A stretch of 64,000 bases of DNA from Fidelibacterota bacterium (GCA_018650795.1 JABIFG010000141.1:12902-76901); one strand, 5' to 3'; positions 25,191 through 45,630 are shown, counted from the first letter of the stretch. Translations and numbers: made by a program. Notes: generated from the letters alone by a model not told the origin.

Positions 25191-26675
25191 CTACTTCAGA
25201 AAGATTATAGTCCTATTCTCATGCCAAGACAACGCTGATACTCTTAAGAAATAAAGTCCTGAGCTTAATTCAAACCCATTATTTGTAGTACCATTCCAAA
25301 ACTGATTGTAACGTCCTGCTTCCTGTTCGCTAAATTTGCGACTCCATATTTTTGTACCTGACAAATCATAAATATCTAAGACCACTGATGAACGAACGGG
25401 TAAAGTATATCCAATATTACAGGTACTATTCGTTGGATTTGGCGAAATGGTAATTTGCCGAAAGAATGAATCAGATTTTTCCGTTGGGATTAGTGCCGAC
25501 GTGGATGTTTGACCCATCGAGTCCGTCTTAATTATCCAAAAATCCGCATTTGAATCTCGACCCACTACAAGAAATCCATTGTCATAAGTTTGAATCACAG
25601 CCTTCATCTCATTGTAACCATGACTACCATAGGTTCTAGTCCACATAACCTCACCATCAGAATCTGTTTTTACCATCCAGCCAAGATCATCATTATTAGC
25701 CAGCCCCGCATTTTGTTTTTGACCAACCATTAGAAACCCACCATCATTTGTTTGAACCAATGAGCTTGTAATCTCATTATGGTAATCTCCATATGTATGA
25801 GACCATACTATTTCACCGTTAGAATCAATTTTAAATAACCAAAAATCTCCCTGGGTGGATTCAAATGAGGCTGTGAAACCGGTAATTACGAAACACTGAT
25901 CGTCAGTCCGCACTAGGTCATAAGCCGCATGAAACCCCGCACCACCATATGTTTCAGTCCAAAGTGTGTCACCATTTGCATCTGTTTTTAATATCCAACA
26001 ATCCCCGTCGTCACTTGTCCCCACTACTAAGTATTCTTGATCATGGGTTTCTAAAACTGAATGTGTTGCATCATTCAAACCCATATTATATCCGCGTGTC
26101 CATAAAGTATCACCGTTGATATCGGTCTTGATTAACAATAAGTCTTTCTCTGGCTCATCAAATGATAAAACTTTTCCGCATATCAAATATCCTTCGTCGG
26201 TCGTTTCAATAACTGAAGAGCCAATACTAATTGCAAATTCCCCAACACCAAAAGTTCTCGTCCAAAGGGTATCTCCAGCTTGATCAATTTTAACTAACCA
26301 AATGCCCCCTTCCTCACTCATAATTGTCCCCGAAAAAACATAATCATGGGTAAGAGTTTCAATTATCGAGTAAGCTTCCTCAATAATTGCGTCTTCTCCA
26401 TATGTTTTTGACAAGATTGTATCACCAGAAAGATTTGCCTTGATCAGCCAGATATCAGAAGCCTCTGGTGAACCATAACCAAAAGACTCTGTTGTACCAA
26501 TTACAGTATATGTTGAATCCGCCGTTTGAACCACGGACATTGCTCGATCAAACCAGGCTCCGCCATACGACTTAATCCAAGTGTTTTGACCATAAGACAC
26601 CGATATCACCAATAGTGTGGTGATATTTATCGATAGTCGTAATATATTTGATCTCATATTTCCTGCCCCACCCAT
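25191..26675 (-). CDS. secreted beta-propeller-like repeat protein with T9SS type-A C-terminal sorting domain (cassette-borne)
   Basis: At least six ~48-aa repeats, each ending in a GDT-type motif (GDTILSKTYG, GDTLWTRTFG, GDTLWTRGYN, GDTLWTETYG, GEIVWSHTYG, GEVMWTRTYG). The C-terminus is ISPNPTNSTCNIGYTLPVRSSVVLDIYDLSGTKI...GRYNQFWNG...SGLYFLRVS....IIFLK. Confidence 0.7.
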   Translation of the reverse strand: MGGAGNMRSNILRLSINITTLLVISVSYGQNTWIKSYGGAWFDRAMSVVQTADSTYTVIGTTESFGYGSPEASDIWLIKANLSGDTILSKTYGEDAIIEEAYSIIETLTHDYVFSGTIMSEEGGIWLVKIDQAGDTLWTRTFGVGEFAISIGSSVIETTDEGYLICGKVLSFDEPEKDLLLIKTDINGDTLWTRGYNMGLNDATHSVLETHDQEYLVVGTSDDGDCWILKTDANGDTLWTETYGGAGFHAAYDLVRTDDQCFVITGFTASFESTQGDFWLFKIDSNGEIVWSHTYGDYHNEITSSLVQTNDGGFLMVGQKQNAGLANNDDLGWMVKTDSDGEVMWTRTYGSHGYNEMKAVIQTYDNGFLVVGRDSNADFWIIKTDSMGQTSTSALIPTEKSDSFFRQITISPNPTNSTCNIGYTLPVRSSVVLDIYDLSGTKIWSRKFSEQEAGRYNQFWNGTTNNGFELSSGLYFLRVSALSWHENRTIIFLK

Positions 26676-26693
26676 TTTTAGATAGAATTAGTG

Positions 26694-26829
26694 CTTTCTA
26701 ACGCTCTAGGCTTGAGCTGCTTCATGAGAAGTGTTCAAAACAGATTCGGTACCCTGTATGCGTGATATCAATTTCAGTTTCCCCCGAAATGAGTGTGAGT
26801 CAGCTCTAAGCCTTTGTTAGAAACCCCTG
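26694..26829 (-). repeat. attC-like repeat copy 1 (well-folding)
   Basis: Three segments pair: TTTCTAAC (26695-702) with GTTAGAAA (26816-823), AGGCTT (26708-713) with AAGCCT (26808-813), and GAGCTG (26714-719) with CAGCTC (26801-806). They are interrupted by an internal loop (GCTCT vs TT) and one bulged base (26807). This is an R-box / unpaired spacer / L-box with an extrahelical base, around an ~80-nt variable centre. Confidence 0.65.
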
Positions 26830-26864
26830 AATATAGCAATAATTACTATTACTCAGAATGTTTA

Positions 26865-27134
26865 TCAATGTGAATCGTAATGTCCACCAATGGCAAAGAT
26901 GTAAATGGATTTGTCATCATATTTATAAATTACTCTATCCCCTTTAGACAATCTCCGTGACCAAAACCCTTTAAGGTTGTGTCTGAGTTGTTCAGGCTTG
27001 CCTAATCCGTGTGATGGATCGCCTCTTTGCATTTCTTGGATAATCTTACACAGATTCGTGTGTAGTTTTTTGTCCTTCTTTCGAAGTTCTTCATATTTTG
27101 ACCAGCTTTTACCTTCAAATACTATTGATCTCAT
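26865..27134 (-). CDS. yoeB: YoeB/Txe family toxin (ribosome-dependent mRNA interferase)
   Basis: ...GLGKPEQLRHNLKGFWSRRLSKGDRVIYKYDDKSIYIFAIGGHY closely parallels E. coli YoeB (GKGKPEPLKHNLSGFWSRRI...HRLVY...HY). Confidence 0.9.
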   Translation of the reverse strand: MRSIVFEGKSWSKYEELRKKDKKLHTNLCKIIQEMQRGDPSHGLGKPEQLRHNLKGFWSRRLSKGDRVIYKYDDKSIYIFAIGGHYDSH

Positions 27135-27387
27135 CTAATTCCTCAGAAGTTGGGGAATATCCTGATCCCGTAGTATGAGTTTCAATGGATTCGATAATTT
27201 GTGCCGAAAGAGATGAGTTCTGAAGCACAAATAGGGTTTCTTGCTCCCTCTCCCAATCCTCAGCACTTTGTACAACAAAATCTTTACCGGCACGTCTTTT
27301 AACACGAATGCTAGAGTGCTCAGAAAGCGCTTGATCCACAAAGGCTTTTATATTTGCCCTAAACTGGTTTACTGAGACTTCAATCAT
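27115..27387 (-). CDS. yefM: YefM/Phd family antitoxin
   Basis: 90 aa with a Phd/YefM-type N-terminus (SVNQFRANIKAFVDQAL..SSIRVKRRAGKDFVVQSAEDWEREQETLFVLQNS). Overlaps yoeB by 20 nt. Confidence 0.85.
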   Translation of the reverse strand: MIEVSVNQFRANIKAFVDQALSEHSSIRVKRRAGKDFVVQSAEDWEREQETLFVLQNSSLSAQIIESIETHTTGSGYSPTSEELDEINSI

Positions 27388-27415
27388 TATAAGCTCCTTT
27401 CATATTTCGCCCATA

Positions 27416-27436
27416 ATGTACCATATTGCGGTACAT
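27416..27436. promoter_or_regulatory. putative YefM-YoeB operator palindrome
   Basis: ATGTACC-N7-GGTACAT lies 29-49 nt upstream of the yefM start. The E. coli yefM-yoeB operator is built on TGTACA-type palindromes. Confidence 0.5.
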
Positions 27437-27909
27437 ATCACAAGATAACATTTAACAATCACAAACTATCCTTGGGGTGTTTCTAACAGTGTTTATACGG
27501 TCTCGTATAAGACGAACCAAACGCCCAAACGCCCGTATAATTTTTTTTATTGTTTGCGTAAGTTTCTGTTATTCAACAGTCTATCCTTAGTCCGTTTTTA
27601 TCGCGGAATTTTATCATGACCGCATAAATAGCTCGCCTCAGCTCCACAAGCGCCGAGTGTATTTTGTTATGGCCTGTAAATGCTGTGTTTTGCACAAGAA
27701 CCCCCGTCCCTGGTTTATATCATACGCGAATCTAGACCTTCTGTCTATTTAATCAAGAGCTCAGTTCTTCAGGCTTCTTGAAGGCGACTGAAAGTCAAAG
27801 CGGAAGTCCCAAAATATGAGAGATATGCTCTAGATTATTGAGTCTTACCTGAATACCTTAGATGCTGTAAAAAAAATAATCTTGTGTTTGGAAAGGGTAA
27901 AAGTCATCC

Positions 27910-28980
27910 ATGGCCAGTAAAGGCATGAAAATAGCCGAAGCACTCAAACATCTCGGTCTTGAAAAAACTGCTGACGCTAATGATGTCAAGCTAGCCTATC
28001 GTGATCTGGCCAAAATCTGGCACCCCGACCGCTTTCAAAACGATGAACGAGTTGGTGCCAAAGCAGAAGCCCAGATCAAAATCATCAATGAAGCCAAAAC
28101 GGTGGCCCTCAACTATGTTGAGAAATATGGTCATTTCCGACACGTCAAGGATGATAATGCGGGTGCCGGTATGGGCTTTGAGCCCCCCAGGCCACCCCCC
28201 AGATACCAACAGCAACAAGCCAGACCACGCCCTAGACCACAGCCAGAACCGGAACCACCACCGCGAAAAGAACCCCCCAAGCCGCCCCCAAAAAAGGAAC
28301 GGCCCAAACCACCACCACGGTCCAAGCCGGAACCTGATGTCTTTGAAGAATCCATGTCCTTTAGTGATTATTTGCCTGGCTCAACCTCTCTTTTTGTAGC
28401 CACTATCCTGATTATCCTGATAGGCTTCTTTTTTATGCTGGGTTCTTCACTCTTCAACTCACCAGTGGATCGTTTTAAAGAGTATGCCGAAAGACCAACT
28501 CTCCAGAGTGCTGCCAGAGTTAAAGCCATGCAACAGCGCGAGGCTGAGGCAACCCGGACAAAAGCCGCTGTAAAAAAAGAAGAGCCTGTAGCTGAAGTGG
28601 TCATTTTAGATACTTTTTTTACACTGGGCTCTGACAAAGACTGGGTTTCTGAGGTTCAAGGTCCGCCCCTGCAGATCAAAGGGCTGGAGTGGCGCTATGG
28701 TTTCTCCACAGTTCAGTTCGATGGTGACAAAGTGGTTTCCTGGATATCTTCAGAATTAAATCCACTGAAGGTTGGAATGATTCTGGATCCCAATCGCTTC
28801 TATTCCGATCGTTATTTCAGCACAGGCTCCAAAAAGGATGAGGTGGCTGCCATCCAGGGCGCTCCGGATATTATTGAACCCAACAGGTGGACCTATGGTG
28901 ATGCCTGGGTAGAATTTGATTCAGATACGGTAGTGACTTGGCAGAACGATCAATCCATTCGTCTTGCTATCCGCTATTAA
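27910..28980 (+). CDS. J-domain (DnaJ-like) membrane protein with Pro-rich linker and duplicated C-terminal domain
   Basis: J-domain with an HPD motif (AYRDLAKIWHPDRFQNDE). The linker is RPRPRPQPEPEPPPRKEPPKPPPKKERPKPPPRSKPEP. One TM helix (LFVATILIILIGFFFMLGSSLF). Two related ~50-aa C-terminal repeats (FTLGSDKDWVSEVQGPP..WRYG...VQFDGDKVVSW and FSTGSKKDEVAAIQGAP..WTYGDAWVEFDSDTVVTW). Confidence 0.75.
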   Translation: MASKGMKIAEALKHLGLEKTADANDVKLAYRDLAKIWHPDRFQNDERVGAKAEAQIKIINEAKTVALNYVEKYGHFRHVKDDNAGAGMGFEPPRPPPRYQQQQARPRPRPQPEPEPPPRKEPPKPPPKKERPKPPPRSKPEPDVFEESMSFSDYLPGSTSLFVATILIILIGFFFMLGSSLFNSPVDRFKEYAERPTLQSAARVKAMQQREAEATRTKAAVKKEEPVAEVVILDTFFTLGSDKDWVSEVQGPPLQIKGLEWRYGFSTVQFDGDKVVSWISSELNPLKVGMILDPNRFYSDRYFSTGSKKDEVAAIQGAPDIIEPNRWTYGDAWVEFDSDTVVTWQNDQSIRLAIRY

Positions 28981-32468: not shown

Positions 32469-34103
32469 ATGGGCACCATTAAAAAAGCATTTCTACTTCT
32501 CCTTATACTTCTCCTGGTTGCCTGCAAACCCGAGCAAAAACCCCGCCTGGTTGTCGTCATATCAGTCGACCACCTCGCCTATTTTGCCTATGATCATTAC
32601 CGACCCGTTTTCACGGGGGGCTTTAAATGGCTGGATGATCATGGCACCAGTTTCGACAATGCCCACCATGAACATGGTTATTGTTCCACTGGTCCTGGAC
32701 ACTTTGTTTTAGGGTCCGGGTTACATCCTGGCCCAGCAGGTATAATTGGTAATAATTGGTATGATCGGGTCAATAAAAAAGATGTGTATTGCGTAGAAGA
32801 TCCAGAAGTCAATGAACTGGATATTCCAGCGAACCATATGTCCTATAATAAGGTCAATGGCACAAGTTATGGAGATTGGCTCAAGGCTGTCTCGCCTAAG
32901 TCAAAAGTTTATGGCGTATCCTGCAAAGACCGAGCTTCCATTATGATGTCTGGCAAAAATCCTGATCTGGCTCTCTGGTATAATTGGAGAGGATCATTTA
33001 CCACCACTGACTATTACACGGATGTCATTCCAGAATGGCTCATAGACTTTAACGAGAATCTCAATATCCTGGGTTATCGGGATTCAGTCTGGACCACAGA
33101 TCTTGACCCCCAACTCCTAGCTGAGTATACCCATGGTGATTCCTTTTATGGTGAAAGCGATCGCTTTGAGAAAACCAATTATAGCCCGGTTTTCCCGATT
33201 GGTTTTGAAGCGGAGTGGGATGATGCCAAGGTCAGAAATGAAATCGCCAGTCGTCCCTGGATGGATCGCATGACCCTGGAACTGGCAGCCACTATCGTTC
33301 GAGAAACTGATTTGGGTCAGGATGGGACCCCAGACATCCTGAATATCGGTTTATCCACCATGGATTTACTGGCCCACTATTATGGCCCATTTTCCCATGA
33401 AGTCATGGACCACCTCACCAGGGTTGATGATTATATCATGACATTTATTGATTTCCTGGATCAGGAAGTAGGGCTGGAGCACGTGGTGTTCGTCCTCACT
33501 GCTGATCATGGTGGTTTGCCCCTGCCTGAACATTGGACCCATGTCCAGAATAACCCAGGTGGTCGTGTAGATGAAGAGCTCTATCTTGCTACTCGGGCCA
33601 AAGCCTACGCCGAACTTGATTCGCTCTACGGGAATCATGATTTCATCCACCGCAAAGGCTCTAGCTACTATTATGATTTTGCGATGATGGATACATTGGG
33701 AGTCCAACAGGCCGTGGTAGATTCTATGCTTCAGACCTATATGGAATCTATCGAGGGCGTTTACCGTCTCTATACCAAGACAGAATTATTAGCCGCCACT
33801 TCTGATGATTATCGCTCTTATCGTCTAAGAAATTTCATGCATCCCCAATTGAGCCCTGATGTATATACCTTGATTGAAGAAGGATGGTTATTCCGTAATC
33901 CCTACGGGACTTCCCACAGTACGCCTTACGAATATGACAGTCATGTTCCTTTGGTTTTTAGCTCGGTGCATATGCGGCAGGTTAGTCTTATGGATTCCGT
34001 GGCTACAGTAGATATAGCACCTACAATAGGTGATATTCTCGGTGTGGAGCCCTTGAATAAAGTGGCTGGCAAAAGCCTGCTACCCCTCTTGATTTCTAAC
34101 TAA
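32469..34103 (+). CDS. alkaline-phosphatase superfamily lipoprotein (type I phosphodiesterase / nucleotide pyrophosphatase family)
   Basis: Lipobox LLLVAC. Metal and nucleophile motifs VVVISVDHLAYF, GYCSTGPGHFVLGSG, LTADHGG and YDSHVPLVF. Confidence 0.75.
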   Translation: MGTIKKAFLLLLILLLVACKPEQKPRLVVVISVDHLAYFAYDHYRPVFTGGFKWLDDHGTSFDNAHHEHGYCSTGPGHFVLGSGLHPGPAGIIGNNWYDRVNKKDVYCVEDPEVNELDIPANHMSYNKVNGTSYGDWLKAVSPKSKVYGVSCKDRASIMMSGKNPDLALWYNWRGSFTTTDYYTDVIPEWLIDFNENLNILGYRDSVWTTDLDPQLLAEYTHGDSFYGESDRFEKTNYSPVFPIGFEAEWDDAKVRNEIASRPWMDRMTLELAATIVRETDLGQDGTPDILNIGLSTMDLLAHYYGPFSHEVMDHLTRVDDYIMTFIDFLDQEVGLEHVVFVLTADHGGLPLPEHWTHVQNNPGGRVDEELYLATRAKAYAELDSLYGNHDFIHRKGSSYYYDFAMMDTLGVQQAVVDSMLQTYMESIEGVYRLYTKTELLAATSDDYRSYRLRNFMHPQLSPDVYTLIEEGWLFRNPYGTSHSTPYEYDSHVPLVFSSVHMRQVSLMDSVATVDIAPTIGDILGVEPLNKVAGKSLLPLLISN

Positions 34104-34334: not shown

Positions 34335-35225
34335 ATGCGAGCACAAAAGTATCGAGTCGCAATGGCGATGATTCAGTCGATTGGTTTGCTGATCCTGCTC
34401 CAGCAATGTGCCTGGATTTTTGGCGAAAAGGATCCGATAGAACTCGTTAAACCTGCTCCCGTCGGGGGCTACGAAGCACTTAGCGCGCGCATCCATTATC
34501 CCACAGATATCCGCGAAGCGGGTATTGAAGGCACGGTGATTGTCAGGGCGCTCATTTCTGTTGAGGGACAGGTCGAAGAGACCCGAGTTGTCGAACCGCT
34601 GAATCCTGTCTTGGATCAAATCGTGACCAATGCCATCAAACGCACACCTTTTGAACCGGCCACCAGATTGGGCAAACCCGAAGAAGTCTGGATATCTATA
34701 CCCTTTGTTTTTGCTTTTAAGGAGTGGTCTTTACAAACCACACCATTTGCCAGTTTCAGCATGACTATTCACCCTGACCAGACCTATAAAAATTTTGAGG
34801 TTGAAATTAAAGGACAATTGAAGGATGGCCTGGAGTGGCCCTTGCGTTTTGAGTGTTTACTGCCCTTCAATGCTGACAACCCCTGGGTCCAGACCGGTGA
34901 TGGTAATTCACCCCTTTCTGGCATTGTGAGAGATGATAAAGGGGAGTGGTTGATTTTCCAGATATCCAACCGTGAACTGGCCTTTGGATTCACCTATAAG
35001 TCCATGGAAGGCATATTGGAACAGAAGTTCTTATATGGGTTCACCATGAATCACGCGCTTCCAGGCTGGGTGCTGAATGTAGTTTATGATGATCAGACTG
35101 TTAATTTTACTCAAACACCGGATCGAAAGGTCACGCTGGAGAATGGTGAAACCCGATTTGAATATGACTTTAAACCACAGGACTCCTACGAGTCGAGGTA
35201 TCTGGAGATTGAACTTCAAAAATAG
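34335..35225 (+). CDS. TonB C-terminal-domain protein with extra C-terminal domain of unknown function
   Basis: The TonB_C-like segment is PAPVGGYEALSARIHYPTDIREAGIEGTVIVRALISVEGQVEETRVVEPLNPVLDQIVTNAIKRTPFEPATRLGKPEEVWISIPFVF. The N-terminus is signal/lipobox-like (LLILLQQC) rather than a TonB TM anchor with a Pro-rich spacer. Confidence 0.55.
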   Translation: MRAQKYRVAMAMIQSIGLLILLQQCAWIFGEKDPIELVKPAPVGGYEALSARIHYPTDIREAGIEGTVIVRALISVEGQVEETRVVEPLNPVLDQIVTNAIKRTPFEPATRLGKPEEVWISIPFVFAFKEWSLQTTPFASFSMTIHPDQTYKNFEVEIKGQLKDGLEWPLRFECLLPFNADNPWVQTGDGNSPLSGIVRDDKGEWLIFQISNRELAFGFTYKSMEGILEQKFLYGFTMNHALPGWVLNVVYDDQTVNFTQTPDRKVTLENGETRFEYDFKPQDSYESRYLEIELQK

Positions 35226-35384: not shown

Positions 35385-35921
35385 ATGGCAAAAGAACAGG
35401 GATATACCAGAAAAAAGACAATCATGGAGCAATACCCCAGTCGACAGGCGCTGGTGTATTCAGGAGCTGCATTTCTCATTTTAGTAACTGGATTGAGAAC
35501 CGTCCTCTCTGTGGCCGAAGAAGGCTTTGGGTTTATTGAGTTTGTTACCATTGGTGCTCTGGCTGTAGAATTCAGCCTCTTACTTCTGTATGCTTTGACA
35601 ATTTATCAGGCCGGGAAAGAAACTTTTCTCATGACCCTTGAAGAGGAGGCAGCTGAATTGGAAGGTGGTGGTGAAGCTGTAGACGGTAGCCCTGCCCCAG
35701 CTAAAGATTTTAGCGTGAAGTCCACAGATGTCCCCGAGGTTGCTCTTGAAATCAATAAATTTACAAAACAAGCCAGTGTCCTGATTGACAAGCTGACCAA
35801 AAATGCTGAGCAAAGTGAGAATTTGAACCAGCACCTGAAAGAATTGGCTGATGAACAGATCAATATTCGAGTCAGAAATGAGATTCAACGATTGTTAAGC
35901 GCTAATATGGGTGCGAAATAA
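35385..35921 (+). CDS. GldL/PorL-like inner-membrane motor protein (short form)
   Basis: Two N-terminal TM helices (ALVYSGAAFLILVTGLRTV and FVTIGALAVEFSLLLLYALTIY), with a lone Glu inside TMH2. An acidic linker and coiled-coil tail follow. The motifs line up with my memory of Flavobacterium GldL (YGMGAAVVILGALFKI ... SIGLVTEALIFALSAF). Confidence 0.55.
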   Translation: MAKEQGYTRKKTIMEQYPSRQALVYSGAAFLILVTGLRTVLSVAEEGFGFIEFVTIGALAVEFSLLLLYALTIYQAGKETFLMTLEEEAAELEGGGEAVDGSPAPAKDFSVKSTDVPEVALEINKFTKQASVLIDKLTKNAEQSENLNQHLKELADEQINIRVRNEIQRLLSANMGAK

Positions 35922-35939
35922 AACGACAGGAGTAGCCGT

Positions 35940-37352
35940 ATGGCTCGCAAGAAAAAGTTTCAAGCTCGTGTCGAAGTCTATTTCATCATTTATATCGCCA
36001 CGATTGTCAGTTTCTTCGCCATCGAAGGTGAAGTAAAACATTTCAAAGACAACCAGAAGAAAATCCTACTGGAAGTATCCAAGGATAAAATCCAAAATCT
36101 GGTTACGATTCGTAATGCCACGGATCTGCATGGCAAAGATACCATCAATTTAAAAGTCCAGCTTGATGGGGCCTTTTCCAAAGATTCCTTTGAAGGAACG
36201 ATTCATCTCAATCCCATTGATGCACCGGAAGAATTGGGACTCAAGGAATTATCCTACAACCTCAATCCGAAAAATGAAGATCCGGACAATAAGACCTTTA
36301 TGGCGGTAATACCCAAATCTGACTTTGATCTAAAAGCCGAAATTCTTTATCGCATGTCAGCGGATATCAGCGTCATGCCTGATGAGGATCTCGTTCAGCT
36401 GGAGCTGGAGAAATCCTACTCTGATAAAATCATTGTTCACAAAATCATGGATGCCATGACTGATGTGGGCAAAATTTCCCTGGAAAAACAATTCCAGAAT
36501 ACGCTGGATCCTGCTGGAGGTGCAATTCAAGCACCCTTTAACATTACAGTTGACCGTCCCAAAGTTAGCATTGTAGAGGGCTTGCCCTGGGAAGTTCGTG
36601 TGATTATTGGCGGAATTGTGGATGAAGACGATCTGGAATTGACTGCCATAAAAGGGGGTAATCTGATCGGTAATCTGGAGGCGGGCACACCAGTAACAGT
36701 AGTTACGGGTCGAGGTCGCAAGGATGGCAAAATTATTCTAAGGGGAACCAGACTGTCTGACGAAGAAACCTCAGATATAGAGTTTCTGCTCCAGGTGAGA
36801 CCCCCGCTCTGGCAGAAACAACCCTCCATAACAGAAGCATATGTGGGTGACCCTATCATATTTGAGGGAGCTTTGAGAGATATTCCCTCGTCCGAAACCT
36901 CTATCCGTGTTGGCGGTACTGCGGTACGGGGAGGCATTATGCCCGGCACCATTGCACAGTTGCCTGACTTGACCGAGGAGGGGACGATAACTTTTCAGGT
37001 GCTTGTCGATGGACGGGACGTGAAAGGGATGACCCATTCAATCAAGGTTGTCAAACCACCTGCTCCCAAGGTTTCAATCAATCCAGTGGGTCGTGATGGG
37101 AATTATCTGACCTTCGAAATCACCACTTACGGAAAGAATAATAGCATTCGTCGCTTCCGGAAAAAGGGTGGCATCGGATCAAATCGCCAGCTTGGCGAAG
37201 CCCAGGTTTTGGGAAGTAGAAAAATCTATCGTTGGGAGGTTGAACTGGAAGAGCCTTTTGATAATCTTGAATCTCAAGAGATTAAATTCAACGTGGATGA
37301 CCAGAACAAGAGCGCCACATCGTACAGGAAGATTTTTATCTATAACTACTAA
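35940..37352 (+). CDS. GldM/PorM-like bitopic protein
   Basis: Single N-terminal TM helix with Arg and Tyr eight residues apart (QARVEVYFIIYIATIVSFFAIEGEV, compared with GldM RQKMINLMYLVFIAMLAMNVSKEV). A ~430-aa beta-rich periplasmic region follows. Confidence 0.5.
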   Translation: MARKKKFQARVEVYFIIYIATIVSFFAIEGEVKHFKDNQKKILLEVSKDKIQNLVTIRNATDLHGKDTINLKVQLDGAFSKDSFEGTIHLNPIDAPEELGLKELSYNLNPKNEDPDNKTFMAVIPKSDFDLKAEILYRMSADISVMPDEDLVQLELEKSYSDKIIVHKIMDAMTDVGKISLEKQFQNTLDPAGGAIQAPFNITVDRPKVSIVEGLPWEVRVIIGGIVDEDDLELTAIKGGNLIGNLEAGTPVTVVTGRGRKDGKIILRGTRLSDEETSDIEFLLQVRPPLWQKQPSITEAYVGDPIIFEGALRDIPSSETSIRVGGTAVRGGIMPGTIAQLPDLTEEGTITFQVLVDGRDVKGMTHSIKVVKPPAPKVSINPVGRDGNYLTFEITTYGKNNSIRRFRKKGGIGSNRQLGEAQVLGSRKIYRWEVELEEPFDNLESQEIKFNVDDQNKSATSYRKIFIYNY

Positions 37353-37403
37353 AAGAAAGTCGTAGAAAATAAATATGTTTGAATTGATAAGAAGGAGGGA
37401 CCA

Positions 37404-38708
37404 GTGAAATTACGAAACCTCATAACTTTACTTATAACGCTTGTCTTTGTGTCTACAATGTGGGCACAGGGTTTTCAGGAAACGGGTAAGCTTGAATGGG
37501 TTGTTAAGGATCGTGAATTTAGCCGCTCATTTATGGAAGCCTATATCGATACCCTGATGGAAATTGATGATATGGCAGAGTTGGAAGTTCAGGAAACTGA
37601 CGAATTACGTGTGATAGTCGGTATCGATGTAGAAGGTAATTCCAGCCTGGAAAGCATTTATGCCAAAGGTCGCAGCGGTGTCTTAAACAAACTGGTTCGT
37701 GCTGTTCTGGACAGTATGGATGTGGAAATGGTTAGCCGTATTCAGAGTCGCAAATACAGCTGGGATTACCTCTCTGCTGTTGATGTGGGTGGTGGCCGTG
37801 GTGACGTGGTCAACGTTTTTGAAGAGCGCAGTAATAAGCAGGTTCGTGATGCTTTCTGGTGGACCCATCGGCGTGTTGATATTTCTGTTTTCCCGCGGAT
37901 GTTTATTCGTGTGAATCCCAATTTTGCCTTTGCTACCGAGTTTGGTAGACAGGATTTGGGTTTTCCTGCTGCCGCATCCAGGACACTAAATATGGGTCTG
38001 GCAACAGAGGTTCTGAAATTTTATGTCACACTGCCTGCATCCTATTTAAATCTGATGAAGAATAGCAATTCTCCTCTTGAAGGAACTTTTGGTGGCGTGT
38101 TAAAATTTGACTCCCCCAATTTTGGTGGTAGCCTGTCTTTTCAGGACATGAATTTTCTGGGCAATACAGATACGACCTCATTTTTGAATCCCTCAAATGT
38201 TGTTTATAATCCGTCTTCAGGTCAGTTCTACTATAGCTTTACAAGCCGTATTGGCAGTACTGCCGATCAACCTGGTTTTGTTCCCCTGGGCTCCTTGCGA
38301 CTTCAAATAGGTTTTAGTTATATGCAATTTGCCTATGGTGACGTTCTAGATGATGAAGCAGGTGTTACAGATGGTATTGGTGCTTTTAGGCTGCTAGACA
38401 AGAGCGATCCTCTTGAATCTATGTTTGGTCTGTTCAGGGCTGAGTATGCCTCAGATATGAACAACCGCTTTTTTAATAGGATCAAGATGGCAGCACAGCT
38501 AAACATCGGCTTGAATGGCTTTGGAGGTTTTGATTTTACCACATCCTATACCATTACCGAATGGCTTGGTGTAAATTTGAACATGACCTATTTCTGGAGT
38601 CCCATGACCTTCAATTATGTTGATCCCACCCCGGGCTCAAACACAACCCTTGAATATGAATGGGAGCCAGGTTTCTATATCGTCCCATCCATAGCAGTAT
38701 ACTTCTAG
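37404..38708 (+). CDS. signal-peptide protein, probable outer-membrane beta-barrel (paralog A)
   Basis: GTG start and signal peptide MKLRNLITLLITLVFVSTMWAQ. The C-terminal half is Gly/aromatic-rich with alternating hydrophobic strands and ends in ...IVPSIAVYF. Paralogous to the next gene. Confidence 0.5.
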   Translation: MKLRNLITLLITLVFVSTMWAQGFQETGKLEWVVKDREFSRSFMEAYIDTLMEIDDMAELEVQETDELRVIVGIDVEGNSSLESIYAKGRSGVLNKLVRAVLDSMDVEMVSRIQSRKYSWDYLSAVDVGGGRGDVVNVFEERSNKQVRDAFWWTHRRVDISVFPRMFIRVNPNFAFATEFGRQDLGFPAAASRTLNMGLATEVLKFYVTLPASYLNLMKNSNSPLEGTFGGVLKFDSPNFGGSLSFQDMNFLGNTDTTSFLNPSNVVYNPSSGQFYYSFTSRIGSTADQPGFVPLGSLRLQIGFSYMQFAYGDVLDDEAGVTDGIGAFRLLDKSDPLESMFGLFRAEYASDMNNRFFNRIKMAAQLNIGLNGFGGFDFTTSYTITEWLGVNLNMTYFWSPMTFNYVDPTPGSNTTLEYEWEPGFYIVPSIAVYF

Positions 38709-38720
38709 GAGGATTTGAAA

Positions 38721-39989
38721 ATGACTACATCAATTCGCAAAACACTCCTGGCCTCACTTATTCTGTTGATCTCGCTCTCTACGGTTTGGGCACAGCCCAA
38801 GGCTCCACCCATGTTGGATCCACGCCGTTTTGATGCCTGGACCGTTGAGTATGAACCTTTCCGCCTGCTCATTGAAAATGCTGTGGAAGAGTATATCACC
38901 TTGAACGACACGAATCTGCCTCCCATTGCAGCCTCAGACAATGTGATTGCTGTCCGCTCAAAATCAGGTCAGCGACAACTTTATCAGATTCGTTATGGAA
39001 CGGTCTCAGAAGGTTATAATGTCATCGATAACATGGAGGTGAAGTGGGTACTGGGAGCCACTCTGGCTCAGACCATTTCCGAGAAGGAAACCTACTATCA
39101 TCTCGACACACAGGAACCCTATGAAACCACCAAGCACCGACCAGAAATTGACTATCTCGAGGTTGAGTCATTCTGGACTCATACTGATTTACAAATTGGT
39201 ACGGATCGTTTGGTCTATCTCTTTGGAAAATCAGGTGGAATTACCGTTGAATGGGGTAACGAACTTTTTGGTCGTCCCTATGGTGAAGCTGGATTTGCCC
39301 GTTTTGGCGTGATTACCCCCATCTTTAAGATGGGAATTCAGGTTCCCTCACCATCCATCCCCTTGGGATTCCGCGTTGGTACAGACGATTCTGATGATCA
39401 GCTCACAGGCGGCATCGGTGGATTTGGAGCCTTTAAATACAAGGTTCTGTATGGTGAGCTGTTTTTCCAATCGCTGGAAGCAGCGCTGGCCAGTGGCACA
39501 CATATCAACAGCTATGATCTGGGCGGTTTGATTAATCTCAGCTTTAACACGACACTGTCAGGCATCCCCATGGGTGAAAAAAGGCGTCTTTTTGCTGGAG
39601 CCCTGCAAATTCGCCTGGGTGGCGTGATTGCCCGGGTTGATCACAGTCAAATTGTTAATGATCGCGTCTATTTCCAGAACCTGAAACGCAGCTACAGTGT
39701 TGCTGCTGGTGATACAACGGAGGAGTTTAAAAATGGAGATGCTGCCTCTCTGGAGGAATCAGGTGTTTTCTTCCGCCTAGATTATGCCTCCCCTCTCATC
39801 CAGAAAAGCTATCCACGACATGAAGCTGTTTTCCAGATTTCTGGTCCCAGTATCATGACCAAATACACGTACAATGTGAACAAGACTCTGGGTCTTCCAC
39901 TCAGTGTACTTATATATACCACGGATAATGAGTGGACACCAAGTGCCGCCATTCTGCTTGGTTTTAAATTGAGGCTTGATCAAAATTAA
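38721..39989 (+). CDS. signal-peptide protein, probable outer-membrane protein (paralog B)
   Basis: The ATG at 38721 lies 7 nt after TAGGAGGA (the track uses TTG 38715). Signal peptide MTTSIRKTLLASLILLISLSTVWAQ. Shares SFWTH and E.G....G.P...G..T...K....P blocks with paralog A. Confidence 0.5.
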   Translation: MTTSIRKTLLASLILLISLSTVWAQPKAPPMLDPRRFDAWTVEYEPFRLLIENAVEEYITLNDTNLPPIAASDNVIAVRSKSGQRQLYQIRYGTVSEGYNVIDNMEVKWVLGATLAQTISEKETYYHLDTQEPYETTKHRPEIDYLEVESFWTHTDLQIGTDRLVYLFGKSGGITVEWGNELFGRPYGEAGFARFGVITPIFKMGIQVPSPSIPLGFRVGTDDSDDQLTGGIGGFGAFKYKVLYGELFFQSLEAALASGTHINSYDLGGLINLSFNTTLSGIPMGEKRRLFAGALQIRLGGVIARVDHSQIVNDRVYFQNLKRSYSVAAGDTTEEFKNGDAASLEESGVFFRLDYASPLIQKSYPRHEAVFQISGPSIMTKYTYNVNKTLGLPLSVLIYTTDNEWTPSAAILLGFKLRLDQN

Positions 39990-40008
39990 CGAGTCTCATA
40001 TTTAGCAT

Positions 40009-40040
40009 GAAAAAGGGTAGGCTTATGTCTACCCTTTTTT
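40009..40040 (+). terminator. Rho-independent terminator
   Basis: AAAAGGGTAG-GCTTATGT-CTACCCTTTT followed by TT. A 10-bp stem, 20 nt after the stop of the 4-gene operon. Confidence 0.8.
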
Positions 40041-40352
40041 GTCCATATGGGGAACCGCGATGTAGTTTCGACAACAAAGCCTAAACGGCTTGTAGTCATC
40101 AGGCTGAAAGAGTGGACCGGAGGCGGATTATTGATAAGCAGGCAAGCGCTCATGGTAGATCGAAAAGCAGTTAACCTCGGTCAATTTCGTTTCCGGGGTA
40201 AAGCCTACCAATAATTAGAGCCTTCTTTTCCAAACATCACTATTTGCATGGTATTTGGGATGTTCATGCCTATTTTGTGGCGAAACAATGTTAAACAGAA
40301 GATCATATTTTATTCAAAAACTAAATAATTCGTTTGTAAAAACGGAGGCAAC

Positions 40353-43312: not shown

Positions 43313-43513
43313 TTGTACGTAATGTTTATCCTGATGGCTTTTAGTCTGACGGTATCTTTGATTTTTTTGGGTGCCTATGTCTGGTCGGTCAAGTCCGGAC
43401 AGTTTGATGACAAATATACCCCATCAGTGAGAATGTTATTCGAAGATAAAAAAGTATCAAAGAAAACGGAACCCGGTACTATTTCGGGAGATAAAAACGA
43501 GGAGAATAAATAA
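43313..43513 (+). CDS. ccoS: cbb3-type cytochrome oxidase maturation protein CcoS/FixS
   Basis: 66 aa with a single TM followed by WSVKSGQFDD, the CcoS signature. Confidence 0.85.
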   Translation: MYVMFILMAFSLTVSLIFLGAYVWSVKSGQFDDKYTPSVRMLFEDKKVSKKTEPGTISGDKNEENK

Positions 43514-45630
43514 TGGAGATGGAAAAATTTCAGTACGACAATAAAATCGTGCGAATGTTTTTCTGGGCCACCGTTATATGGGGTGTCACAGCCTTTCTGG
43601 TTGGACTTACTATAGCGCTTCAACTGCCATCACCCTGGTGGAATTTTAGCACATCATGGCTAACTTTTGGTCGCCTGCGTCCCCTGCATACCAACGCAGC
43701 TATTTTTGCGTTTGTCGGCAATGGCATATTCATGGGATATTACTATTCAGCTCAAAGATTGCTTAAAGCCCGAAATTTTTCCGATGTGCTCAGTAAAGTG
43801 CATTTCTGGGGGTGGCAGGGTATCATTGTCTCAGCAGTGTTGACTCTGCCTGCCGGTTTATCCACCGCCAAGGAATATGCAGAGCTGGAATGGCCCATTG
43901 ATATCGCCATCGCCCTGATCTGGGTTGCCTGGGGTGTCAACATGATGGGGACCATCCTTAAACGCCGCGAAAAGCACCTCTATGTAGCGATCTGGTTTTA
44001 TATCGCCACCTTTGTCACGGTTGCCATGCTCCATATTGTGAATTCTCTGGAGATGCCAGTGAGTTTCATGAAGAGTTATCCAATTTATGCCGGTGTACAG
44101 GATGCTCTGGTTCAATGGTGGTACGGTCACAATGCTGTCGCCTTCTTCCTGACCACACCTTATCTGGGTTTGATGTACTACTTCATGCCAAAAGCCGCCC
44201 AGAGACCGGTCTACTCCTATAGACTGTCTATCATTCACTTCTGGGCTCTCATCTTTCTGTATATCTGGGCTGGTCCTCACCATTTGCTCTATTCCTCAAC
44301 ACCCGATTGGGCACAAACACTGGGAACTGTATTCTCTATCATGCTGATTGCTCCTTCATGGGGTGGTATGCTCAATGGTTTGCTCACACTACGAGGTGCC
44401 TGGGACCGAGTTCGTCAGGATCCCATCCTGAAATTTATGGTTGTGGCCATTTCCGCTTATGGAATGTCCACCTTTGAAGGTCCCATGATGTCATTGAAAA
44501 ACTATAATGCCATCACGCACTTTACAGATTATACGATTGCCCATGTCCACGTTGGCACTTTGGGATGGAACGGTCTGTTAACTTTTGGTATGCTGTATTG
44601 GCTGGCACCACGCCTATGGAATGCAAAGCTTTATTCAGTTAAACTGGCCAATGTTCACTTCTGGTTAGCTACGCTTGGAATCATTTTCTATGTCATTCCC
44701 ATGTACTGGACTGGTATTACCCAGGCCTTAATCTGGAAACAGTTCACACCTGAGGGCTTGCTCGTCTATCCAAACTTTCTGGAAACCGTATTACAGCTGG
44801 TCCCCATGTACTGGACACGAGCCTTTGGTGGAACGCTTTATCTGACGGGTTCCTTGATTATGGTTTATAACCTGGTCAAAACTGCCCGCTCTGGTGCTCC
44901 AATTCCTGATCAGGAAATGGAAGCTGCTCCCTTGAAGCCCATCGTGGCCGAACCAGGTGAACACAAACACCGCTGGCTTGAAGCCCGACCCATGTACTTC
45001 CTGGCCTTGGCTTTGGTTGCCGTGGCTATTGGTGGTATTGTAGAATTTGTGCCCATGTTTGTTGTGAAGTCCAATATTCCAACCATCAGCACGGTCACAC
45101 CTTATTCACCCCTGGAGCTTGAGGGTAGAGATATTTACATCAAGGAAGGTTGTTCTAACTGCCACTCACAGATGATTCGTCCATTCAGAAGCGAAACCGA
45201 ACGCTATGGTGAGTACTCGAAAGCCGGTGAGTTTGTTTATGATCATCCATTCCTGTGGGGTTCCAAACGAACGGGACCAGATCTCCATCGTGAAGGTGTT
45301 GGCAAGTTGAAAAAACCGGATGCCTGGCATTATAATCACATGGACAATCCTCGCTCAATGAGTCCTGGTTCTATTATGCCGGTCTATCCCTGGTTGCTGG
45401 AGAGATCCAATGATTATGATGATCTTCCCAAGAAAATCAGTGTCATGAGAACCTTAGGTGTTCCATATGCAGAAGGATACGAAGATCAGGCCCTGGAAGA
45501 CCTTAAGCAACAGGCTGACGGAATTGTGGCCAATCTTAAGGAATCAGGCATTGAAACGTCCTGGGATAAAGAGATTATCGCTCTTATCGCATATCTGCAG
45601 AAGCTTGGAACAGGAATTCTTCCCAAATAG
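43513..45630 (+). CDS. ccoNO: cbb3-type cytochrome c oxidase, fused subunits I and II (CcoN-CcoO)
   Basis: 705 aa. The N-terminal ~470 aa is a polytopic heme-copper oxidase (HTNAAIF, WWYGHNAVAFF, HHLLY, HVHVGTLGW). The C-terminal part has a TM helix and a heme-c site CSNCHSQMIRP, which is CcoO-like. Confidence 0.95.
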   Translation: MEMEKFQYDNKIVRMFFWATVIWGVTAFLVGLTIALQLPSPWWNFSTSWLTFGRLRPLHTNAAIFAFVGNGIFMGYYYSAQRLLKARNFSDVLSKVHFWGWQGIIVSAVLTLPAGLSTAKEYAELEWPIDIAIALIWVAWGVNMMGTILKRREKHLYVAIWFYIATFVTVAMLHIVNSLEMPVSFMKSYPIYAGVQDALVQWWYGHNAVAFFLTTPYLGLMYYFMPKAAQRPVYSYRLSIIHFWALIFLYIWAGPHHLLYSSTPDWAQTLGTVFSIMLIAPSWGGMLNGLLTLRGAWDRVRQDPILKFMVVAISAYGMSTFEGPMMSLKNYNAITHFTDYTIAHVHVGTLGWNGLLTFGMLYWLAPRLWNAKLYSVKLANVHFWLATLGIIFYVIPMYWTGITQALIWKQFTPEGLLVYPNFLETVLQLVPMYWTRAFGGTLYLTGSLIMVYNLVKTARSGAPIPDQEMEAAPLKPIVAEPGEHKHRWLEARPMYFLALALVAVAIGGIVEFVPMFVVKSNIPTISTVTPYSPLELEGRDIYIKEGCSNCHSQMIRPFRSETERYGEYSKAGEFVYDHPFLWGSKRTGPDLHREGVGKLKKPDAWHYNHMDNPRSMSPGSIMPVYPWLLERSNDYDDLPKKISVMRTLGVPYAEGYEDQALEDLKQQADGIVANLKESGIETSWDKEIIALIAYLQKLGTGILPK

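What the first reader, a model, noticed from the sequence alone, without database searches (positions are those of the whole stretch)
35385..40040. GldL/GldM-like motor pair coupled to two paralogous outer-membrane proteins instead of GldK/GldN
Four tightly packed co-directional genes (gaps of 18, 51 and 12 nt) end in a strong intrinsic terminator.

- ORF1 (178 aa) has the GldL/PorL layout: two N-terminal TM helices, a single buried Glu in TMH2 (..IGALAVEFSLLL..) and a coiled-coil cytoplasmic tail.
- ORF2 (470 aa) has the GldM/PorM layout: one N-terminal TM helix with a conserved-looking Arg and a Tyr eight residues later (RVEVYFIIY vs GldM RQKMINLMY), then a long beta-rich periplasmic part. 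In the Flavobacterium/Porphyromonas systems, the TMH2 Glu of GldL and the TM Arg of GldM are the proton-coupling residues.
- Canonical loci are gldK-L-M-N. Here there is no FGE/SUMF1-like GldK lipoprotein and no GldN.
- Instead there are two ~430-aa signal-peptide proteins that are paralogs of each other (FWWTHRRVDISV vs SFWTHTDLQIGT; EFGRQDLGFP..LATEVLKFYVTLP vs EWGNELFGRP..VITPIFKMGIQVP). The first ends in an aromatic residue, as OM barrels do.

T9SS-type sorting domains occur elsewhere in the window, so secretion cargo exists. Either this is a strongly divergent T9SS core for this lineage, or a GldLM-type pmf motor is wired to a new outer-membrane partner. I do not know of this architecture being described.
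Basis: partly seen in the sequence, partly recalled or inferred. Interest (0 to 1): 0.82.

Follow-up and report, generated by a model that had tools for sequence, protein, structure and literature searches.

The report
Unannotated four-gene envelope-spanning cassette of SAR406
Four adjacent genes kept together across the ocean bacterial phylum Marinisomatota (SAR406) encode two inner-membrane and two outer-membrane proteins laid out like a proton-driven envelope motor, but they show no demonstrable relationship to the GldL/GldM motor they were compared with.

Summary
Four co-directional genes (35385-39989) end in a strong hairpin terminator.

- ORF1: two membrane helices with a near-invariant Glu in the second, plus a coiled-coil tail.
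- ORF2: one N-terminal membrane helix, then four beta-sandwich domains.
- ORF3 and ORF4: distant paralogs with signal peptides and a predicted C-terminal beta-barrel.

The order ORF1-2-3-4 is kept in every one of the 32 Marinisomatota genomes whose contig has room, down to 26-30% ORF1 identity. It also occurs in three unrelated-looking contigs (GC 33-62%). All sources call the proteins hypothetical.

GldL/GldM membership is not supported. Pfam, NCBIfam, PDB profile searches and an exhaustive profile search of 1.84 billion proteins find no GldL or GldM. The same Pfam models detect divergent phage-borne GldL at 1e-23 to 1e-28. ORF2 lacks the helical D1 domain of GldM, and Foldseek returns only generic Ig chains. 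Profile-profile comparison of ORF1 with GldL is weak (P about 0.003, probability 11%), though it aligns the two glutamates.

My best reading is a new trans-envelope complex, probably proton-coupled. The membrane helices are the most conserved parts of both inner-membrane proteins. Its outer-membrane task is unknown, and a role as a SAR406 type IX secretion motor is possible but untested.

The parts
35385..35921 (+). ORF1, 178 aa. Inner-membrane hairpin (TMH1 about 22-41, TMH2 about 50-74), a near-invariant mid-membrane Glu62, a cytoplasmic coiled-coil linker and a conserved C-terminal helix.
   Evidence: ORF and hydropathy. Family alignments are, with the motif VYxGAAxLIxxVGxR ... ALxxEFxLLxxYA. 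The TM helices are the most conserved regions (0.71 and 0.60, against 0.25-0.50 elsewhere). There is no Pfam or NCBIfam family. 63 representative clusters were found among 1.84 billion proteins.
35940..37352 (+). ORF2, 470 aa. Bitopic inner-membrane protein with a conserved TM helix ([RK]-V-E-V-Y-F...S.F..EGE), helix 29-52, then four beta-sandwich domains (about 56-190, 201-287, 299-371 and 384-467).
   Evidence: AlphaFold2 model with pLDDT 84. Foldseek returns generic Ig-domain chains. The TM segment is the most conserved part (0.70, against 0.37-0.51). No Pfam hit.
37404..38708 (+). ORF3, 434 aa. Signal peptide (...MWA|Q), an N-terminal alpha/beta domain (about 29-115), an invariant FWWTHRR segment (151-157) and a predicted C-terminal beta-barrel of about 16 strands that ends in Phe.
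   Evidence: AlphaFold2 model with pLDDT 66. Foldseek gives only weak matches to outer-membrane barrels such as OmpT, AlgE and porins (E at least 1.2e-3, TM-score at most 0.25). No Pfam or PDB sequence hit.
38721..39989 (+). ORF4, 422 aa (424 aa from the TTG at 38715). A paralog of ORF3 with signal peptide (...VWA|Q).
   Evidence: BLASTP against ORF3 gives E 5e-5, co-linear. Homologs in the pelagic clade carry N-terminal Cadherin/Big_9 domains. No structure was predicted for ORF4 itself.
40007..40042 (+). Intrinsic-terminator-like hairpin with a U-tract that closes the four-gene unit.
   Evidence: Sequence. RNA fold energy is -20.9 kcal/mol.
34335..35225 (+). Upstream gene for a probable lipoprotein with a TonB_C domain and a beta-rich C-terminal domain. 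It may be a lineage-specific accessory and is not part of the conserved core.
   Evidence: Pfam TonB_C at 2.6e-15. It is present directly upstream only in the close relatives L010-L023 and absent in the distant ones. The gap to ORF1 is 159 nt.

Best explanation
The four genes encode a previously undescribed complex that spans the cell envelope.

**Components**
- ORF1 and ORF2 form an inner-membrane module. Its functional core is the membrane-embedded helices. These are the ORF1 hairpin with its near-invariant Glu62, and the ORF2 helix with Glu12, Tyr14 and Phe15.
- The four beta-sandwich domains of ORF2 form a rod. I estimate that it is long enough to cross the periplasm.
- ORF3 and ORF4 form a paralogous pair of outer-membrane beta-barrels, each with an N-terminal domain.

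**Proposed mechanism**
- I infer that proton (or ion) flow through the ORF1/ORF2 membrane core drives a conformational or rotary movement of ORF2.
- That movement would be passed to the ORF3/ORF4 barrels to power an outer-membrane process, most likely export or handling of surface or secreted proteins.
- It would then work like GldLM, ExbBD-TonB or TolQRA without being a detectable member of any of those families.

**Shown versus inferred**
- Shown: gene structure, conservation, synteny, predicted folds, and absence from known families.
- Inferred: the ORF1-ORF2 and ORF2-ORF3/4 contacts, the energy coupling, the stoichiometry and the outer-membrane task.
For: **Synteny**
- Strict ORF1-2-3-4 order is kept in every locus with room among 32 species-level Marinisomatota genomes, down to 26-30% ORF1 identity.
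- The same order occurs in three very different contigs, L068 (GC 62%), L070 (GC 54.5%) and L072 (GC 33%).
- The ORF1-ORF2 pair is always adjacent, with gaps of about 3-45 nt or an overlap.

**Conservation pattern**
- The TM helices are the best-conserved parts of both inner-membrane proteins. That is unusual for simple membrane anchors.
- A carboxylate in mid TMH2 is kept in at least 90% of family members.

**Predicted folds**
- The ORF2 model is a TM helix, a further helix and four beta-sandwich domains.
- The ORF3 model is a signal peptide, an N-terminal domain and a beta-barrel. It gives weak matches to outer-membrane barrels and ends in an aromatic residue.

**Resemblance to GldL**
- Profile-profile alignment with GldL is weak, but it places the GAA motif, R38/K27 and E62/E49 in register. 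Scores are P 0.007, then 0.003 with more GldL sequences. 7 of 200 block-shuffled controls reach the first score.
Against: - No protein-protein contact, stoichiometry or energy dependence has been tested. No multimer model could be run.
- There is no significant homology to any known stator, whether GldL, MotA, ExbB or TolQ.
- The GldL resemblance is within the range that shuffled membrane helices sometimes reach.
- ORF2 Glu12 is replaced by Ser, Pro or Asp in the most distant pairs (L008, L067, L070, L071).
- One relative of the ORF1 family (P0160, locus L066) stands alone with no ORF2-like neighbour.
- The ORF3 model is of only moderate confidence (pLDDT 66). Its most conserved segment is modelled with low confidence.
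Confidence: 0.42

Rival explanations
1. The cassette is the type IX secretion motor of Marinisomatota. ORF1 and ORF2 would be extremely diverged PorL/PorM equivalents. The ORF3/ORF4 barrels would replace the PorK/PorN ring and serve the many cargo proteins that carry T9SS-type C-terminal domains.
For: - CTD-type cargo is present in the window.
- It is reported as highly expanded in SAR406 genomes, with 24 copies in one bin. No secretion machinery is described in the passages I read (PMC5596340).
- Reviews list other FCB phyla as possible T9SS holders, but not this phylum (PMC11285876).
- In L072 a Por_Secre_tail protein (43.7 bits) sits 63 nt upstream of the cassette on the same strand.
- The overall architecture and the weak in-register GldL alignment fit.
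- One marginal GldM_2nd hit was found (E 0.063).
Against: - There is no significant GldL or GldM signal, although the Pfam models find phage-borne GldL and GldM easily.
- ORF2 lacks the helical D1 domain and shows nothing against GldM TM+D1 (P 0.38).
- The GldM_2nd hit is 1 of 13 proteins, among Ig-like noise.
- The wider ORF1 family is small, with 63 clusters. By my own knowledge, T9SS-type CTDs occur across many phyla, so this cassette cannot be the general answer.
- Whether these genomes hold SprA, PorV, PorU or canonical gldKLMN could not be checked here.
- A single adjacency to a CTD protein can be chance in CTD-rich genomes.
Confidence: 0.14
2. The cassette is a passive structural complex without energy coupling. 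Examples would be an inner-to-outer-membrane tether, or a scaffold for outer-membrane protein or lipid assembly. In that case the conserved membrane residues serve only for packing.
For: - It is conserved across the phylum, including in AT-rich pelagic lineages (GC 33-34%, which I take to be streamlined). That suggests a housekeeping envelope role.
- There is no ATPase or recognisable motor domain.
- The small-residue motif GAA...G in TMH1 is typical of tight helix packing.
Against: - A buried, near-invariant carboxylate in mid-membrane is energetically costly and is usually functional.
- The TM helices are more conserved than every soluble domain.
- The conserved cytoplasmic C-terminal helix of ORF1 suggests regulation or coupling on the cytoplasmic side.
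Confidence: 0.25
3. The ORF1/ORF2 pair is an inner-membrane adaptor for export of a surface polymer such as a polysaccharide, playing a role like a co-polymerase. The outer-membrane partner would vary between lineages, and ORF3/ORF4 would be the export channel here.
For: - In L008 an ORF1-like/ORF2-like pair is followed by a Wza-type Poly_export/SLBB protein instead of the barrels.
- In the pelagic clade the cassette follows five co-directional genes. These include a ParA/MinD-type ATPase (AAA_31) and coiled-coil bitopic proteins.
- AlgE, an alginate export barrel, is among the weak Foldseek matches.
Against: - No glycosyltransferase, flippase or polymerase gene lies next to the cassette in the window or in the loci examined.
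- The Wza-type gene in L008 is 295 nt downstream and is a single case.
- The ATPase has a ParA-type Walker A motif and no tyrosine cluster.
- The AlgE matches are not significant.
Confidence: 0.1

Closest known systems
GldL/GldM (PorL/PorM), the proton-driven motor of type IX secretion and gliding in Bacteroidota (PDB 6YS8, 7SAT-7SAZ)
   Same: - The small protein has two N-terminal TM helices, a conserved Glu in TMH2, a variable cytoplasmic linker and a conserved C-terminal helix.
- The partner is encoded immediately downstream. It is bitopic and N-in, with a basic residue at the cytoplasmic end of its helix and a periplasm-spanning chain of beta-sandwich domains.
- Outer-membrane-associated partners are encoded next.
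- The host belongs to the FCB group and has CTD-type cargo.
- Profile-profile alignment puts Glu62 on GldL Glu49.
   Different: - No HMM-level homology, although the Pfam GldL_N and GldM models are sensitive.
- ORF2 has one helix (29-52) in place of the helical D1 domain of about 190 residues.
- The Arg/Tyr pair is not conserved. ORF2 instead carries its own conserved Glu12.
- The partners are two beta-barrel paralogs, not the GldK lipoprotein and GldN.
ExbB-ExbD-TonB and TolQ-TolR-TolA, inner-membrane ion-driven energisers of outer-membrane proteins (comparison from my own knowledge of these families)
   Same: - An inner-membrane complex is coupled through a periplasm-spanning protein to outer-membrane beta-barrels.
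- The single-pass subunit has a conserved acidic residue at the cytoplasmic end of its helix. Compare ORF2 Glu12 with ExbD Asp25 and TolR Asp23.
- In close relatives a TonB_C-domain protein is encoded directly upstream.
   Different: - ORF1 has two TM helices, not three, and gives no MotA_ExbB hit.
- ORF2 has Ig-like domains rather than a Pro-rich linker plus a TonB_C or TolA domain.
- ORF3 and ORF4 have no Plug or TonB-dependent receptor signature.
Agl-Glt gliding machinery of Myxococcus, with paralogous outer-membrane barrels GltA/GltB and TonB_C-type periplasmic proteins (from my own knowledge)
   Same: It has paralogous outer-membrane beta-barrels working as a pair, linked across the periplasm to a proton-driven inner-membrane motor. 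TonB_C-domain proteins lie in the neighbourhood.
   Different: The motor there is TolQR-type (AglRQS). No sequence relationship was detected here, and the cassette has far fewer components.
Co-polymerase/outer-membrane export pairs for polysaccharides (Wzc-Wza type; from my own knowledge)
   Same: An inner-membrane protein with a large periplasmic part is paired with an outer-membrane export protein. One distant ORF1/ORF2 pair sits beside a Wza-type gene.
   Different: There is no Wzz or Poly_export domain in the cassette. No polysaccharide synthesis genes lie nearby.

Membership tests
GldL/PorL | Matches the family sequence models (Pfam GldL_N PF22827; NCBIfam/TIGRFAM GldL). | tested here: not met
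   - No hit for ORF1 at E up to 1, nor for any of 45 family members at E up to 10.
- The ORF1 profile finds no GldL chain in the PDB.
- It finds none among 1.84 billion proteins. All 51 hit sequences I printed, of 63, carry the ORF1 motif.
- A GldL TM-core HMM scores ORF1 relatives at about 2.6 bits, within noise.
- Positive control: GldL_N finds phage-borne GldL at 1.9e-28 and 3e-23.
GldL/PorL | Two N-terminal TM helices with a functionally essential Glu in TMH2 (Glu49 in F. johnsoniae). | tested here: met
   Hydrophobic segments lie at 23-41 and 53-71. Glu62 is kept in at least 90% of 45 sequences. hhalign aligns Glu62 with Glu49. The function of the residue was not tested.
GldL/PorL | Statistically supported profile-profile homology. 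| tested here: inconclusive
   - hhalign gives probability 0.4% with the narrow ORF1 profile.
- It gives 5.5% (P 0.007) with the 67-sequence profile.
- It gives 10.6% (P 0.003) with 16 GldL sequences.
- Block-shuffled controls reach the score of the 5.5% comparison in 7 of 200 trials.
GldL/PorL with GldM/PorM | A 5:2 complex, with the GldM helices inside a GldL pentamer. | not testable with these tools
GldM/PorM | Matches the GldM domain models (GldM_1st, 2nd, 3rd and 4th). | tested here: not met
   - No hit for ORF2.
- Of 13 diverse ORF2 relatives, only one gives a sub-threshold GldM_2nd hit (E 0.063, 14.2 bits against a 24.4-bit cut-off) amid Ig-like noise.
- PDB profile searches find no GldM or PorM.
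- hhalign against GldM TM+D1 gives P 0.38.
- Positive control: all four models hit a real GldM in L051.
GldM/PorM | A helical periplasmic D1 domain followed by three beta-sandwich domains. | tested here: not met
   The AlphaFold2 model has a single helix (29-52) and then four beta-rich domains. No GldM or PorM chain is among the top 50 Foldseek PDB matches. A domain-by-domain superposition on 6EY4 could not be run.
GldM/PorM | An invariant Arg in the TM helix (Arg9) and a Tyr eight residues later. | tested here: inconclusive
   A basic residue is usual at this position (R or K), but it is S in L072 and N in L008. The position also fits the ordinary positive-inside pattern. Tyr18 becomes Asn in the pelagic clade.
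GldK/PorK and GldN/PorN | A lipoprotein with an FGE-sulfatase-type domain (GldK), and a GldN-family periplasmic protein, both encoded beside gldL and gldM. | tested here: not met
   ORF3 and ORF4 have no Pfam or NCBIfam hit, and neither do their distant homologs. The ORF3 model is a beta-barrel.
Outer-membrane beta-barrel proteins (generic) | A signal peptide, a closed antiparallel barrel and a C-terminal aromatic residue. | tested here: inconclusive
   - N-terminal signal-like segments are present.
- The ORF3 model has about 16 strands, at pLDDT 66.
- Foldseek matches to OmpT, AlgE and porins are all weak (E at least 1.2e-3).
- A terminal Phe or Trp occurs in ORF3 and in most homologs, but not in window ORF4.
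- No structure was predicted for ORF4.
MotA/ExbB/TolQ stators | Matches the MotA_ExbB model and has 3-4 TM helices. | tested here: not met
   No hit. ORF1 has only two hydrophobic segments.

The most novel reading that the evidence does not exclude
The cassette is a new, independently evolved or extremely diverged family of ion-driven envelope motors. In SAR406 it would power secretion or surface display of the expanded set of T9SS-type CTD proteins. That would make it the missing energiser of type IX-like secretion outside Bacteroidota, with a two-barrel outer-membrane module in place of the PorK/PorN ring.
Probability: 0.13. Interest if true: 0.88.

Novelty: new variant of a known kind. Interest (0 to 1): 0.6.

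Why it matters
- **Ecological weight.** Marinisomatota (SAR406) is, by general knowledge, one of the most abundant bacterial groups of the dark ocean. It has very few cultured members; one isolate, Fidelibacter multiformis, is described in PMC11652737 (listed).
- **Unstudied proteins.** A four-gene envelope system kept in every lineage examined, including the AT-rich (GC 33-34%) pelagic ones, is probably central to how these cells build or use their surface. Yet all four proteins are annotated as hypothetical and belong to no described family.
- **New motor class.** If the inner-membrane pair is an ion-driven motor, it would add a new class to the few known envelope energisers (Mot, Ton, Tol, Zor, GldLM). 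It would also give a concrete candidate for how CTD-tagged proteins are exported in a phylum where no type IX machinery has been reported.
- **Method point.** A GldL/GldM-like layout can be read from raw sequence even where every homology method fails. Architecture alone should not be filed as family membership.

Tried and rejected
**Searches for GldL/GldM that found nothing**
- Direct family assignment by Pfam and NCBIfam for all four proteins gave no hit.
- PDB sequence-profile searches with the ORF1, ORF2 and ORF3 family profiles found only coiled-coil designs, titin-type Ig domains, or nothing.
- I tried to bridge to GldL through an exhaustive profile search of 1.84 billion proteins. It found a wider ORF1 family of 63 clusters but no GldL.
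- Pfam scans of 45 ORF1 relatives and 13 ORF2 relatives gave only coiled-coil or Ig-like noise. One GldM_2nd hit at E 0.063 I treat as noise.
- A GldL TM-core HMM run against all ORFs of the fetched loci does not lift ORF1 relatives above background.
- hhalign of the ORF2 family against GldM TM+D1 found nothing.

**A scan that failed**
I used GldL-like genes from viral contigs instead.

**Readings I rejected**
- Phage lysis cassette (holin plus spanins): the proteins are too large, and the cassette is chromosomal and conserved across the phylum.
- Type IV pilus or type II secretion platform: there is no secretin or PilB/PilC. Only weak T2SSB-like hits occur, in an upstream gene of one clade.
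- Anti-phage defence system: I set this aside without testing it. The PADLOC library was not searched. The reasons are the housekeeping neighbours and the conservation across the phylum.
- TonB_C gene as a core part: I rejected this because it is present only in close relatives.

**Literature**
- Searches for type IX secretion or gliding machinery in Marinimicrobia found only reports of CTD-protein expansion.

Full report
**1. What is in the sequence**

- ORF1 runs 35385-35921 (178 aa).
- ORF2 runs 35940-37352 (470 aa).
- ORF3 runs 37404-38708 (434 aa).
- ORF4 runs 38715/38721-39989 (424 aa from the TTG, 422 aa from the ATG).

The gaps are 18 and 51 nt, then 12 nt if ORF4 starts at the ATG at 38721. 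Public gene calls use that start. Eighteen bases after the ORF4 stop lies a hairpin with a U-tract, at about 40007-40042, with a fold energy of -20.9 kcal/mol. The simple consensus scan missed it. The next gene is an Rrf2-type regulator, followed by a P-type ATPase and a cbb3 oxidase cluster. The cassette is therefore a self-contained unit among housekeeping genes.

**2. The four proteins**

*ORF1.* It has two hydrophobic segments, 23-41 and 53-71. A tail follows that scores only against coiled-coil proteins.

*ORF2.* It has one hydrophobic segment, 11-29. The AlphaFold2 model (pLDDT 84) shows a helix at 29-52 and then four beta-rich domains. Foldseek against the PDB returns generic chains of Ig-type domains such as antibodies, ICAM, titin and protocadherins. 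No GldM or PorM chain is among the 50 matches shown.

*ORF3.* It has a signal-like N-terminus. Its moderately confident model (pLDDT 66) has an N-terminal alpha/beta domain and a C-terminal barrel of about 16 strands that ends in Phe. The structural matches are to outer-membrane barrels (OmpT, AlgE, porins), and all are weak (E at least 1.2e-3, TM-score at most 0.25). The most conserved segment, FWWTHRR at 151-157, lies in a region modelled with low confidence.

*ORF4.* It is a co-linear paralog of ORF3 (E 5e-5, 19% identity). Relatives cross-hit between the two families.

None of the four proteins has a Pfam or NCBIfam family. Every public source calls them hypothetical.

**3. Organism and conservation**

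Close homologs come from Candidatus Marinimicrobia (Neomarinimicrobiota, SAR406) genomes assembled from metagenomes.

*Within the phylum.* A scan of one genome per species found 32 loci, all from this phylum. Four of them are labelled 'uncultured Lentisphaeria' or just 'bacterium'. In every locus with enough contig, the order ORF1-ORF2-ORF3-ORF4 is kept. This holds down to 26-30% ORF1 identity, in AT-rich pelagic lineages with GC of 33-34%.

*The wider ORF1 family.* An exhaustive profile search of 1.84 billion representative proteins found 63 clusters. They share the motifs VYxGAAxLIxxVGxR in the first helix and ALxxEFxLLxxYA in the second.

*Outside the close relatives.* Contexts of distant members show the same four-gene cassette in contigs of GC 62% (L068), 54.5% (L070) and 33% (L072). 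The ORF1/ORF2 pair is also adjacent in L006, L067 and L071.

*Two exceptions.*
- In L008 the pair is followed by a Wza-type Poly_export/SLBB gene.
- In L066 an ORF1-like domain with extra N-terminal helices stands alone.

**4. Is it GldL/GldM?**

*Sequence-model tests are negative.*
- Pfam and NCBIfam give nothing for ORF1 or ORF2.
- Pfam gives nothing GldL-like for 45 ORF1 relatives.
- For 13 ORF2 relatives the only related hit is one sub-threshold GldM_2nd match (E 0.063). It sits among comparable Ig-like noise hits.
- Profile searches of the PDB, which holds five GldL/PorL and several GldM/PorM sequences, find none of them.
- The 1.84-billion-protein profile search reached no GldL.
- A GldL TM-core HMM built from 16 sequences scores ORF1 relatives at about 2.6 bits, inside the noise of unrelated ORFs.

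*The positive control shows this is not a lack of sensitivity.* Pfam GldL_N detects divergent GldL-like proteins on phage contigs at 1.9e-28 and 3e-23. All four GldM domain models detect a GldM on contig L051.

*Structure and motif.* ORF2 lacks the helical D1 domain of GldM. hhalign of the ORF2 family against GldM TM+D1 gives P 0.38.

*The one positive sign is weak.* hhalign of the ORF1 family TM core against GldL rises from probability 0.4% to 5.5% and then 10.6% (P 0.003) as both profiles are broadened. It aligns both helices with the GAA motif, R38/K27 and Glu62/Glu49 in register. Column shuffles that keep the helix-loop-helix layout reach the score of the 5.5% comparison in 7 of 200 trials.

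I conclude that the layout is GldLM-like, that membership is not shown, and that very distant common ancestry of ORF1 and GldL can be neither claimed nor excluded.

**5. What speaks for a functional membrane core**

I weighted sequences for redundancy in family alignments that include the distant cassettes.
- The two ORF1 helices have mean column conservation of 0.71 and 0.60. The rest of ORF1 has 0.25-0.50.
- The ORF2 helix has 0.70. Its periplasmic domains have 0.37-0.51.

Simple membrane anchors are normally the least conserved parts of a protein. ORF1 keeps a carboxylate in mid-membrane in at least 90% of members. Within Marinisomatota and in L068, ORF2 keeps the signature [RK]-V-E-V-Y-F at the cytoplasmic end of its helix. 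The Glu is lost in the most distant pairs.

I estimate that a helix plus four beta-sandwich domains gives a rod of roughly 15-20 nm. That would be enough to reach the outer membrane. The ORF3/ORF4 barrels encoded next are the natural partners.

This supports the reading of an inner-membrane module that couples ion flow to movement of a periplasm-spanning rod acting on outer-membrane barrels. It does not prove it. The known systems that work this way are GldLM, ExbBD-TonB and TolQRA.

**6. What the outer-membrane module might do**

There are only hints.
- CTD-type cargo is present in the window. It is reported as strongly expanded in SAR406 genomes, and no machinery is described in the passages I read (PMC5596340).
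- In L072 a clear Por_Secre_tail protein lies 63 nt upstream of the cassette.
- In the pelagic clade the ORF4 homolog is 769-778 aa, with N-terminal Cadherin/Big_9 domains.
- In that clade the cassette follows five co-directional genes. These include a ParA/MinD-type ATPase and coiled-coil bitopic proteins, one of which has a weak T2SSB/CdsD_C-like C-terminus.
- One distant pair sits by a Wza-type gene.

These hints point to secretion or surface display, but they do not agree on a substrate. I could not test whether cassette-bearing genomes hold SprA, PorV, PorU or canonical gldKLMN.

**7. Verdict**

The architecture and the synteny are right, and the GldL/GldM family assignment is not.

| Reading | Probability |
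|---|---|
| New trans-envelope complex, probably ion-coupled | about 0.4 |
| Passive structural scaffold | about 0.25 |
| Diverged type IX secretion motor | about 0.14 |
| Polymer-export adaptor | about 0.1 |

I rate the finding as a new variant of a known kind, namely envelope-spanning energy-transducing systems, built from four protein families that nobody has described. Interest is moderate to high. The system is phylum-wide in a major ocean lineage, and the hypothesis can be tested directly with multimer modelling and whole-genome scans.

Noticed in passing
L042-L065 (IMG/VR viral contigs), e.g. L047:1015-1542 and L060:4983-5423: GldL_N-domain proteins (Pfam 1.9e-28 and 3e-23) are encoded on viral contigs without a GldM. 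In one group the gene lies between a DUF3127 gene and a primase-type gene (BT4734-like_N/PriCT_1/DUF5906). In another it is followed by a small protein with a weak 3-TM holin match. Only L051/L052 have a real GldM downstream. Phage-borne stand-alone GldL-like proteins seem unexplained.
   Followed up: partly
window 34335-35225 (+): A probable lipoprotein (LLILLQQC) with a TonB_C domain (2.6e-15) and an unassigned beta-rich C-terminal half. It is conserved directly upstream of the cassette only in close relatives.
   Followed up: partly
L028, L029, L031, L034-L036, L038, L039, L041 (complete in L038:5470-9845; only the last gene on L040): In the AT-rich pelagic SAR406 clade, five co-directional genes precede the cassette. 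They encode a zinc-ribbon/TM protein, a 242-aa TM protein, a ParA/MinD-type ATPase (AAA_31), a 476-aa coiled-coil bitopic protein, and a 326-aa protein with a weak T2SSB/CdsD_C-like C-terminus. This may be a larger nine-gene machine.
   Followed up: partly
L028:8864-11173 and L030:7222-9558: The ORF4 homologs of the pelagic clade are 769-778 aa, with N-terminal Cadherin/Big_9/Cadherin_4 domains in front of the barrel region. The ORF3 homologs there are about 590 aa.
   Followed up: no
window 37404-37475 and 38721-38801; also L068, L070 and L072 homologs: By eye, all eight ORF3/ORF4-type signal peptides I looked at place a Gln directly after the likely cleavage site (WA|Q, RA|Q, SA|Q, C|Q, G|Q, S|Q). 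This echoes the Q-rule, which is described as specific to Bacteroidetes (PMC5837995, seen).
   Followed up: no
window 24001-28000: GC drops to 0.39 against about 0.45 elsewhere. The stretch holds a CTD-bearing protein (25191-26675, - strand) and a 296-aa ORF with no family (24135-25025, - strand). It may be an acquired island.
   Followed up: no
window 43513-45630 (+): A single 705-aa ORF carries both COX1 (CcoN) and FixO (CcoO) domains. It is a fused cbb3 oxidase subunit, followed by FixP, FixG-like and FixH genes.
   Followed up: no
window 22901-23350 (-): A 149-aa ORF matches the iodothyronine deiodinase family (T4_deiodinase, 9.9e-15).
   Followed up: no
window 32469-34103 (+); L038:16165-17430; L002:2260-3606: An alkaline-phosphatase-superfamily enzyme (Phosphodiest or Sulfatase) lies within about 2 kb of the cassette in three otherwise different neighbourhoods. 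This may be chance in genomes rich in such enzymes.
   Followed up: no
L066:10001-11203: A 400-aa protein (P0160) carries the ORF1-type helix pair after an N-terminal extension with further hydrophobic segments. It stands alone between recG and miaA with no ORF2-like partner. The hairpin domain is therefore also used outside the cassette.
   Followed up: no
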